Positions 3,179 to 3,649 of a stretch of 9,388 nucleotides of DNA are shown here, one piece after another. Position numbers and translations under genes: made by a program. The notes under the pieces are model-generated. The model worked only from the letters and a program-made list of their open reading frames with translations, had not been told where the DNA came from and did no database searches. Source of the DNA: a virus (taxonomy: Duplodnaviria > Heunggongvirae > Uroviricota > Caudoviricetes); the IMG/VR virus record IMGVR_UViG_3300029497_000144. The stretch is one strand, 5' to 3'. Numbering within the stretch: the first letter of the stretch is position 1; each line of letters starts with the position of its first letter.

Positions 3179-3649
3179 TTATCTCCCCCAGAATGGCGTT
3201 TCATCGTCGAATGGTGGGCGTTGGTCAAAATCATCAGGGGTATTATATAACTCCCATCCCGGCGCGGATTGTGTTGTGTGGCCCCTGCTGGCTCCGCTTG
3301 CTTTGACTGATTCGGCCCGCTTCCCGCCGGGGCGTACCGTTCTGGCGCTGATCACGCTGTCGGCTACTACCTGATAACCTTGCTGTGTACCGCCATCCTT
3401 GCCCGTCCACTGATTGATCTGCATCGCTCCGGCAACACTGACTAAATCGCCTTTAACGTGTCCTGCCAGTGCGTCGGCCTGTTTGCCGAATGCCACCACG
3501 CCCAGCCAGAAAGTAACCTCTCCGCCCTCTGCTGCATGGCAGGGCAGTGCCACCGCTAACCGGCCCATTGCCATGCTTGTACCGTTTGCTGTGGTACGGG
3601 TCTGGGGATCTGCCACCAGCCGCCCGTATGCTGAAATTTGTGCTGTCAT
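3179..3649 (-). CDS. Single-stranded DNA-binding protein (SSB) family homolog (156 aa)
   Basis: OB-fold pattern aligns by eye with E. coli SSB: G.L..DP..R....G...A...LA, then W..VV.FGK.A......KG..V, then WT...G.......VV, plus an acidic C-terminal DDFDQRPPFDDETPFWGR resembling the SSB DDDIPF tail. GAGGAA SD; start overlaps the stop of the upstream gene (ATGA). Confidence 0.75.
   Translation of the reverse strand: MTAQISAYGRLVADPQTRTTANGTSMAMGRLAVALPCHAAEGGEVTFWLGVVAFGKQADALAGHVKGDLVSVAGAMQINQWTGKDGGTQQGYQVVADSVISARTVRPGGKRAESVKASGASRGHTTQSAPGWELYNTPDDFDQRPPFDDETPFWGR

What the first reader, a model, noticed from the sequence alone, without database searches (positions are those of the whole stretch)
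3179..3649. Element-encoded SSB homolog with a modified C-terminal tail, co-operonic with PerC-like and Icd-like genes
The OB-fold core aligns with bacterial SSB, but the C-terminus is ...DDFDQRPPFDDETPFWGR rather than ending in the canonical DDDIPF (E. coli SSB tail recalled from memory). The SSB tail is the docking site for many host DNA-metabolism proteins, so an altered tail could serve element replication or titrate SSB-interacting partners. It is translationally coupled to the upstream 100-aa gene and the downstream PerC-like gene.
Basis: partly seen in the sequence, partly recalled or inferred. Interest (0 to 1): 0.55.

Follow-up and report, generated by a model that had tools for sequence, protein, structure and literature searches.

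The report
Satellite-island SSB with a stop-loss tail
This is an ordinary, already annotated single-stranded-DNA-binding protein in the replication module of a small phage-satellite-type island of E. coli, and its odd tail is a normal SSB tail lengthened by three residues through a one-base stop-codon mutation found in about half of otherwise identical copies.

Summary
The ORF at 3179..3649 (minus strand, 156 aa) is real and is a bacterial-type SSB. It matches Pfam PF00436 (E 1e-14) and PHROG 44 (E 5e-30). The model has a confident OB core and a disordered tail, and all top 50 PDB fold matches are SSBs. RefSeq already names it SSB.

It lies in a ~10 kb integrase/P4-family-primase island between dinD and yicC. 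The local order is primase, iteron origin, 100-aa gene, SSB, PerC. Published work already files SSB genes of such Gram-negative PICIs under replication.

The "modified tail" is not a family trait. Of 104 full-length relatives, 97 end in an acidic tip with a terminal F, L or Y, typically ...DQRPPFDDETPF, close to E. coli DDDIPF. Relatives read TTC TGA GGG AGA TAA; the window reads TTC TGG GGG AGA TAA. This stop-loss adds WGR.

The 156-aa and 153-aa proteins occur on 578 and 577 public contigs. The extension removes the free carboxylate of the terminal Phe that partner pockets bind, so it probably blunts partner recruitment (inferred). The Icd-like gene is 3.6 kb upstream, beyond the primase and origin.

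Ordinary; low interest.

The parts
3179..3649 (-). ssb gene, 156 aa plus TAA stop (RefSeq WP_057621713.1 in E. coli MSB1_1D)
   Evidence: Pfam PF00436 E 1.2e-14; PHROG 44 E 4.7e-30; annotated 'single-stranded DNA-binding protein' in RefSeq.
3338..3649 (-). OB-fold ssDNA-binding core, residues 1-104
   Evidence: The AlphaFold2 model has pLDDT about 80-93 over residues 1-104. The top 50 Foldseek PDB matches are all bacterial SSBs. W48, F54 and W81 are invariant in the family and align with E. coli W54, F60 and W88. dN/dS is 0-0.26.
3239..3337 (-). Disordered, sequence-variable linker, residues 105-137
   Evidence: pLDDT is below 50 over residues 105-143. This is the most variable part of the family alignment.
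3191..3238 (-). Conserved acidic tip PDDFDQRPPFDDETPF, residues 138-153. This is the normal C-terminus in relatives.
   Evidence: D142 and Q143 are nearly invariant (Q143 is invariant in alignment A2). 97 of 104 full-length relatives end in F, L or Y after acidic residues. BLASTP aligns the tip with E. coli PMDFDDDIPF.
3182..3190 (-). Three-codon stop-loss extension TGG GGG AGA (Trp-Gly-Arg). The TGG at 3188-3190 replaces the ancestral TGA, and the extension is translated across the perC Shine-Dalgarno sequence GGGAGA.
   Evidence: relatives read TTC TGA GGGAGATAAACATG and the window reads TTC TGG GGGAGATAAACATG; the two exact proteins are on 578 and 577 contigs; 24 versus 19 complete E. coli genomes.
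3646..3948 (-). 100-aa gene of unknown function whose stop overlaps the ssb start (ATGA)
   Evidence: The only matches are sub-threshold: DUF5551 (E 0.012) and PHROG 4935 of unknown function. Among the 35 genome loci compared it is present only in L001, L005 and L015.
2895..3176 (-). PerC-family gene starting 2 nt after the ssb stop
   Evidence: PF06069 E 1.8e-29. PerC lies directly downstream of ssb in 26 of 104 related loci.
4001..4252 (.). Iteron field: about 12 copies of GTAGGGAT(A/T) in both orientations, several spaced 10 bp apart. It is the putative replication origin, lying between the primase stop and the 100-aa gene.
   Evidence: PMC10111431 states that primase, SSB and DUF5906 genes of Gram-negative PICIs colocalise with mapped origins.
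4268..6766 (-). P4-family primase/helicase (Zn-ribbon, Toprim, D5_N, DUF5906)
   Evidence: A homologue lies within 3 kb upstream of ssb in 84 of 104 related loci.

Best explanation
The gene encodes a bacterial-type SSB carried in the replication module of a small integrative island of the Gram-negative PICI / P4-related satellite type. The island is inserted between dinD and yicC of E. coli. The local gene order is P4-family primase-helicase, iteron origin, a small variable gene, ssb, and often perC.

The most likely role (inferred) is as follows. When the island is induced and its primase-helicase opens the iteron origin, the SSB coats the exposed single strand with its OB core. Through its disordered linker and acidic ...DDETPF-COOH tip it engages the same host partners as host SSB, or the island's own primase.

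In this window a single A-to-G change turned the stop codon TGA into TGG. The protein therefore carries three extra residues (WGR) after the terminal Phe. This removes the free alpha-carboxylate that the partner pockets of DnaG, RecO, ExoI, chi and PriA bind with an arginine. The allele is therefore probably an ssDNA binder with weakened or lost partner recruitment (inferred, not tested).

The mutation also moves the ssb stop from 11 nt to 2 nt before the perC ATG. Ribosomes then translate across the perC Shine-Dalgarno sequence, which may change perC coupling (inferred).

The variant behaves as a tolerated polymorphism, not as a designed tail.
For: SSB identity: Pfam, PHROG and NCBIfam hits, sequence matches to solved SSB structures, an AF2 OB core with a disordered C-terminus, and the top 50 PDB fold matches all being SSBs. 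The aromatic residues W48, F54 and W81 are conserved. Purifying selection is evident, with dN/dS of 0-0.26.

Context: the near-identical locus in E. coli MSB1_1D carries an integrase, an HTH regulator, antA/B, ash, an Icd-like gene, a P4-family primase, SSB and PerC between dinD and yicC. An iteron field lies next to the primase. A primase is upstream in 84 of 104 related loci. The literature places SSB of Gram-negative PICIs in the replication category beside mapped origins (PMC10111431) and reports PerC as common in such PICIs (PMC11773190).

Tail: relatives stop at TGA immediately after ...PF. 97 of 104 end in F, L or Y. The exact 153-aa and 156-aa proteins are on 577 and 578 contigs. Outgroup genera all carry TGA, so TGG is the derived state.

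Role of the terminal Phe carboxylate: PMC5872125 reports a salt bridge from DnaG R452 and says this feature is shared with ExoI, RecO, chi and PriA. PMC3152348 reports that RecO Arg132 anchors the carboxyl end and that mutation of Pro176 or Phe177 is strongly inhibitory.
Against: No experiment or computation here shows ssDNA binding, tetramer formation, partner binding or a role in island replication.

The slot is not fixed. In E. coli PK6 the 100-aa gene and most of ssb are replaced by a small ORF plus an M41-peptidase-like gene, leaving only the last ~109 nt of ssb. Only 92 of 387 E. coli genomes that share this region carry a near-full-length ssb. The SSB is therefore dispensable for carriage of the island and may be accessory.

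The equivalent of E. coli W40 is absent. The TIGR00621 score (50.8 bits) is just under its cut-off of 53.95. The near-equal frequency of the two alleles could also reflect selection, not neutrality.
Confidence: 0.7

Rival explanations
1. The WGR extension is adaptive. Capping the tip would create an SSB that coats ssDNA without recruiting, or titrating, host SSB partners. That could lower toxicity in the lysogen, shield island or helper ssDNA from host nucleases and helicases, or escape a tip-sensing defence. It might also tune perC translation. On this view the TGA/TGG pair is kept by selection.
For: The two alleles, identical apart from the stop codon, are about equally common: 578 versus 577 contigs and 24 versus 19 complete genomes. 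The TGG allele is found in strains from humans, poultry, a crayfish and a vegetable. The mutation changes the ssb stop to perC start spacing from 11 nt to 2 nt.
Against: Only this one closely related allele group carries WGR, in 2 of 104 loci. No other lineage has converged on a capped tip in any regular way; the few other irregular ends look like sporadic truncations or extensions. Equal counts can arise from clonal sampling of two successful host lineages. There is no PADLOC defence hit.
Confidence: 0.1
2. In this island the gene is a decaying passenger. The island is a cryptic remnant, and the stop-loss is one of several neutral lesions with no functional meaning.
For: The ash-family gene is annotated as a pseudogene in the near-identical locus. 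Ssb is deleted down to a 109-nt stub in many sister islands. Only 119 of 5426 complete E. coli genomes carry the gene.
Against: The reading frame is otherwise intact and is identical to the TGA allele over 153 residues. dN/dS against relatives is 0-0.26. The integrase, primase, iterons and immunity RNAs are all present.
Confidence: 0.12
3. The SSB does not serve island replication. It serves another ssDNA transaction instead, for example helping or hindering helper-phage replication or recombination, or protecting incoming DNA.
For: The gene sits just beyond the origin, where the variable cargo of such islands begins. It is swappable with unrelated genes. PMC11773190 reports that an E. coli PICI aids helper-phage replication, by its title and abstract as listed.
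Against: Linkage to the primase is tight and conserved across genera, in 84 of 104 loci. No annealase or recombinase partner gene was recognised next to it in the window. No close homologue exists in 50,697 phage genomes.
Confidence: 0.08

Closest known systems
E. coli chromosomal SSB (PDB 1EQQ/4MZ9) and bacterial homotetrameric SSBs in general (PF00436)
   Same: Single N-terminal OB fold, and conserved stacking residues equivalent to W54, F60 and W88. Both have a disordered linker. The family tip ...PPFDDETPF resembles ...PMDFDDDIPF.
   Different: Only 25% identity to E. coli SSB. The protein is shorter (153/156 aa against 178 aa) and lacks the Gly/Gln-rich linker. There is no W40 equivalent. 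The tip carries an extra QRPPF insert. In this allele the tip is not terminal because WGR follows it.
SSB genes of Gram-negative PICIs, placed in the 'Replication' category with primase and DUF5906 (Mageeney et al. 2023, PMC10111431)
   Same: Same arrangement: primase (with a DUF5906 domain), origin and SSB, with C4/isrK-type immunity RNAs upstream and a PerC-family gene nearby.
   Different: That paper classifies the genes by profile only. No PICI SSB has been characterised biochemically as far as the searched library shows. The stop-loss allele is not described there.
Satellite phage P4 (alpha primase operon, CI/C4 RNA, Icd, Ash)
   Same: P4-family primase, a C4 antisense RNA plus isrK, an Icd-like gene, an ash-family gene and a tyrosine integrase.
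   Different: No psu, delta or sid genes are annotated in the near-identical locus. To my knowledge (not checked here) P4 itself has no ssb gene.
Conjugative-plasmid SSBs (F-type leading-region Ssb)
   Same: Mobile-element-borne SSB paralogues of the same Pfam family. tblastn finds 957 plasmid records, mostly conjugative.
   Different: Nearly all are below 60% identical. Their context is a leading region, not a primase-origin module. The closest plasmid hits (75% identity) were not examined further.

Membership tests
Bacterial SSB family (PF00436) | Sequence match to the SSB OB-domain profile above the curated threshold | tested here: met
   PF00436 scores 54.6 bits against a cut-off of 26, E 1.2e-14, over residues 4-99. 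PHROG 44 gives E 4.7e-30. The narrower TIGR00621 model scores 50.8 bits, just under its 53.95 cut-off.
Bacterial SSB family (PF00436) | OB fold superposable on solved SSB structures | tested here: met
   The AF2 core (residues 1-104) has pLDDT about 80-93. The top 50 Foldseek PDB hits are all SSBs, with E down to 3e-9 and target-normalised TM-scores of 0.64-0.81.
Bacterial SSB family (PF00436) | Aromatic residues that stack on ssDNA (E. coli W40, W54, F60, W88) | tested here: met
   W48, F54 and W81 are invariant in 34 homologues and align with W54, F60 and W88. The W40 equivalent is absent, so three of four are present.
Bacterial SSB family (PF00436) | Disordered linker ending in an acidic tip whose last residue is a hydrophobic Phe with a free carboxylate (DDDIPF type) | tested here: not met
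   The feature is met by the family: 97 of 104 relatives end in F, L or Y after acidic residues, and the 153-aa allele ends DDETPF. It is not met by this allele, where the tip is followed by WGR. The linker is predicted to be disordered.
Bacterial SSB family (PF00436) | Homotetramer that binds ssDNA | not testable with these tools
   No multimer prediction or binding assay was available. The equivalent of E. coli His55 is Leu49. Whether that matters is unknown.
Gram-negative PICI-type satellite island | Integrase, AlpA-type regulator and primase-helicase in one orientation, about 10-20 kb, with no phage structural or lysis genes | tested here: met
   The near-identical locus L001 is a ~10 kb island between dinD and yicC. 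It carries a tyrosine integrase, a 67-aa HTH regulator and a P4-family primase, and no structural genes. The AlpA identity of the HTH gene was not tested.
Gram-negative PICI-type satellite island | Origin of replication (iterons) adjacent to the primase gene | tested here: met
   About 12 GTAGGGAT(A/T) repeats lie at 4001-4252, between the primase stop and the next gene. Origin function itself was not tested.
Gram-negative PICI-type satellite island | Induction, excision and packaging by a helper phage | not testable with these tools
   This needs experiments. 80 related loci were retrieved from the IMG/VR viral-contig collection, mostly contigs of about 15-25 kb, but that collection includes predicted proviruses.
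P4-like satellites | psu, delta and sid capsid-size and late-control genes | tested here: not met
   None is annotated in L001 and none was recognised among the window ORFs scanned. The P4-type primase, C4/isrK RNAs, Icd-like gene and ash gene are present.

The most novel reading that the evidence does not exclude
The TGA/TGG stop-codon polymorphism could be a maintained functional switch. The 153-aa form would be a normal hub-type SSB. The 156-aa form would be a tip-capped SSB that coats ssDNA but no longer recruits or titrates host SSB-interactome proteins, and it would also change translational coupling to perC. Each form might be favoured in different hosts or with different helper phages. 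Rare natural read-through of UGA by tRNA-Trp would give the same WGR product from the TGA allele (my own knowledge, not tested).
Probability: 0.08. Interest if true: 0.45.

Novelty: already known. Interest (0 to 1): 0.15.

Why it matters
It matters little. The protein is correctly annotated in RefSeq, and SSB genes are a recognised part of the replication module of Gram-negative PICI-type islands. The useful outcome is a correction: the unusual tail is a one-base stop-loss allele of a canonical SSB tip, not a re-designed interaction motif. The pair of natural alleles (153 and 156 aa, otherwise identical, both common) could serve as a ready-made test of how much a satellite SSB needs a free C-terminal Phe. 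That is a modest, specialist use.

Tried and rejected
- **Phage origin.** tblastn against 50,697 phage genomes gave no close relative; the best hits were about 37% identical, in Staphylococcus phages. A helper-phage origin is therefore not supported.
- **Defence role.** The PADLOC scan gave no hit for the SSB, the 100-aa, PerC, 61-aa or 119-aa proteins.
- **Separate promoter or terminator for the 100-aa/ssb/perC cluster.** The consensus scan found no sigma-70-like site in 1700-4400. It found no minus-strand terminator between the primase and the 61-aa gene. Operon structure therefore remains undetermined.
- **Allele census, first attempt.** The 32-mers reached into perC and were too specific, giving 3 and 0 genomes. 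They were replaced by 33-mers ending at the TAA.
- **Structure prediction, first attempt.** It was repeated with database proteins only.
- **Tetramer prediction.** This was not possible with the tool.
- **Literature.** Searches found no biochemical study of a PICI or P4-like SSB.
- **Clustering oddity.** The 214-aa proteins sharing the 90% cluster with the SSB are unrelated M41-peptidase-like proteins, so this looks like a clustering artefact. They are also neighbours or replacements of ssb in sister islands.

Full report
**Observation**

The window has a 156-codon ORF on the minus strand at 3179..3649 (ATG to TAA).

The ORF is not a chance one. It matches Pfam SSB PF00436 at 54.6 bits against a cut-off of 26 (E 1.2e-14, residues 4-99). 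It matches PHROG 44 'single strand DNA binding protein' at E 4.7e-30 and fourteen NCBIfam SSB models. The broad TIGR00621 model falls just under its cut-off, at 50.8 against 53.95 bits.

A search of the protein collection returned 743 homologues with E <= 1e-3, and the sources that give a name call them single-stranded DNA-binding protein. RefSeq annotates the identical protein (WP_057621713.1) as SSB in E. coli MSB1_1D.

The stop of the upstream 100-aa gene overlaps the SSB start (ATGA at 3646-3649). The PerC-family gene (PF06069, E 1.8e-29) starts 2 nt after the SSB stop.

**Structure**

An AlphaFold2 model was built on 34 homologues. It has a confident OB core (residues 1-104, pLDDT about 80-93) and a disordered C-terminal third (105-156, mostly below 50). 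All top 50 Foldseek matches in the PDB are bacterial SSB OB domains, from S. aureus SsbA/SsbB, B. subtilis SsbA and others. Sequence search of the PDB gives the same picture.

Against it, BLASTP gives 25% identity. It aligns W48, F54 and W81 with the ssDNA-stacking residues W54, F60 and W88. These three are invariant in the family alignment, and there is no equivalent of W40. dN/dS against eight relatives is 0-0.26, so the family is under purifying selection.

**The tail**

Of the 120 best homologues, nearly all are 153 aa or shorter and end in an acidic tip with a terminal Phe. Typical endings are ...DQRPPFDDETPF, DDEDPF, DDEAPF, DDEAQF, DDSIPL and DDDF.

I extracted the gene from 115 related loci, drawn from one genome per species and from IMG/VR. 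Among the 104 full-length copies, 85 end in F, 11 in L and 1 in Y. Two copies (one shown is Edwardsiella hoshinae) end in the exact E. coli hexapeptide DDDIPF. Only two loci end in WGR, and both carry the window's own allele.

At DNA level the relatives read ...CCA TTC TGA GGG AGA TAA AC ATG(perC). The window reads ...CCA TTC TGG GGG AGA TAA AC ATG. One A-to-G change has converted the stop codon into a Trp codon, and translation runs three codons to the next in-frame TAA. All other genera carry TGA, so TGG is the derived state. The extension is translated across GGGAGA, the Shine-Dalgarno sequence of perC. The distance from the ssb stop to the perC start shrinks from 11 nt to 2 nt.

**Frequency of the allele**

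The allele is real and common, not a sequencing error. The exact 156-aa protein is on record on 578 contigs. The exact 153-aa protein, the same sequence without WGR, is on 577 contigs.

Among 5,426 complete E. coli genomes, a 33-mer ending at the TAA is found with TGG in 24 genomes and with TGA in 19. The ssb gene as a whole is found in 119 of these genomes, at 80% coverage or more in 92.

**Likely consequence of the extension (inferred)**

SSB partner proteins bind the last residues of the tip. The Phe side chain sits in a hydrophobic pocket and its free carboxylate is held by a basic residue. PMC5872125 describes this for DnaG (R452) and states that the feature is shared by ExoI, RecO, chi and PriA. 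PMC3152348 shows that RecO Arg132 anchors the carboxyl end, and that changing Pro176 or Phe177 is about as damaging as removing all three aspartates.

Adding Trp-Gly-Arg after Phe153 removes that free carboxylate and places a bulky residue and a basic residue there. The 156-aa form should therefore still bind ssDNA but recruit partners poorly. None of this was tested here.

**Context**

The near-identical locus in E. coli MSB1_1D shows a ~10 kb island between dinD and yicC. Its genes, in order, are:

- tyrosine integrase
- hypothetical protein
- small HTH regulator
- hypothetical protein
- antA/antB-family gene
- DUF4222 gene
- ash-family pseudogene
- Icd-like gene
- two hypothetical proteins
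- P4-family primase
- the 100-aa gene
- SSB
- PerC
- the 61-aa gene
- a convergent 119-aa gene

In the window, the 320 bp between the primase stop (4268) and the 100-aa gene holds about twelve GTAGGGAT(A/T) repeats in both orientations, several with 10-bp spacing (4001-4252). This is the expected look of an iteron origin. Rfam finds a C4 antisense RNA (7494-7581) and isrK (7630-7706) upstream of the Icd-like ORF. This is the P4-type immunity arrangement.

Across related loci, a homologous primase lies within 3 kb upstream of ssb in 84 of 104 cases, and PerC lies directly downstream in 26 of 104. Some relatives carry what look like an HK97-type capsid gene and a prohead-protease gene after ssb (L007, L009; judged by eye from the ORF translations, not profile-tested), so they may be capsid-forming islands.

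The literature already covers this arrangement. Mageeney et al. [quoted passage not shown] They also note C4 and isrK hits in these islands. PMC11773190 describes PerC-family regulators as common in Gram-negative PICIs.

**Is the SSB essential to the island?**

Apparently not for carriage. In E. coli PK6, the 100-aa gene and most of ssb are replaced by a small ORF plus an M41-peptidase-like gene. Only the last ~109 nt of ssb remain, still carrying the TGG. Such stubs account for 17 of the 24 TGG hits and 6 of the 19 TGA hits, counting matches with no annotated gene under them; only one of these stubs (PK6) was inspected directly. Only 92 of the 387 genomes that share part of this 1.8 kb region have a near-full-length ssb. 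The position just past the origin therefore behaves as an exchangeable slot.

**The Icd-like claim**

The only Icd-like signature (NF033153, E 1.6e-9) is in the ORF that starts at 7438 on the minus strand. It is on the same strand but 3.6 kb upstream, separated from ssb by two small genes, the primase and the iteron field. The consensus scan found no promoter-like site in 1700-4400 and no minus-strand terminator-like site between the primase and the 61-aa gene. Read-through from the primase operon is therefore possible, but co-transcription is not shown.

**Other checks**

No close relative exists in 50,697 deposited phage genomes; the best hits are about 37% identical, in Staphylococcus phages. 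Plasmid hits are mostly the distant SSBs of conjugative plasmids. PADLOC gives no defence-system match for the SSB or its small neighbours.

**Verdict**

The sequence-level observation is correct and the SSB assignment is solid. The feature is ordinary and already annotated. It belongs to a gene class already recognised in satellite-type islands.

The 'modified tail' is a three-residue read-through caused by a stop-codon SNP in a protein whose family tail is canonical. The most likely effect is a blunted tip in a gene the island can do without.

The only mildly interesting residue is that two natural alleles, with a free or a capped tip, are about equally common. I put the chance that this reflects a selected functional switch at under 10%.

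Noticed in passing
window 7494-7581 (-) and 7630-7706 (-): Rfam gathering-level hits to C4 antisense RNA (81 bits) and isrK (60 bits). This is the P4-type immunity RNA pair. Both lie inside the long spurious ORF 7101..7994, just upstream of the Icd-like start at 7438.
   Followed up: partly
window 4001-4252: About twelve GTAGGGAT(A/T) iterons in both orientations with 10-bp phasing, between the primase stop and the 100-aa gene. This is the probable origin of the island.
   Followed up: partly
L116 (E. coli PK6) 2978-4033; also hits H51-H58 and H59-H63: In sister islands the 100-aa gene and most of ssb are replaced by a 57-aa ORF plus an M41-peptidase-like (HEAGH motif) gene, leaving a ~109-nt 3' stub of ssb before perC. 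In L015 and L017 a similar peptidase-like gene follows an intact ssb. The 90% protein clustering oddly puts these 214-aa proteins in the same cluster as the SSB.
   Followed up: partly
window 7101-7438 (-): The Icd-like ORF runs on for 112 codons in the window. The near-identical locus L001 annotates a 64-aa Icd-like protein and an overlapping 68-aa hypothetical protein. One of the two records therefore has a frameshift or a fusion.
   Followed up: no
window 910-1746 (-): The dinD gene flanking the island is only 84% identical at protein level to dinD of E. coli MSB1_1D, although yicG next to it is 99% identical and the island genes are 88-100% identical. This is a divergent dinD allele at the island edge.
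   Followed up: no
window 6982-6991 and 7837-7846: Two 10-base runs of N (masked or unresolved bases) interrupt the region upstream of the primase. They create artificial X residues in several listed ORFs.
   Followed up: no
window 8108-8941 (-): The antA/antB-family protein has a C-terminal match (E 1.5e-9) to the PADLOC candidate defence model PDC-S22.
   Followed up: no
L025, plus unlisted loci from the census: A few other relatives also have irregular ends, for example ...DDDF+RN...NQFRGK and truncated ...RPPFDD. Sporadic stop-codon shifts at the SSB tip therefore occur in other lineages too.
   Followed up: no
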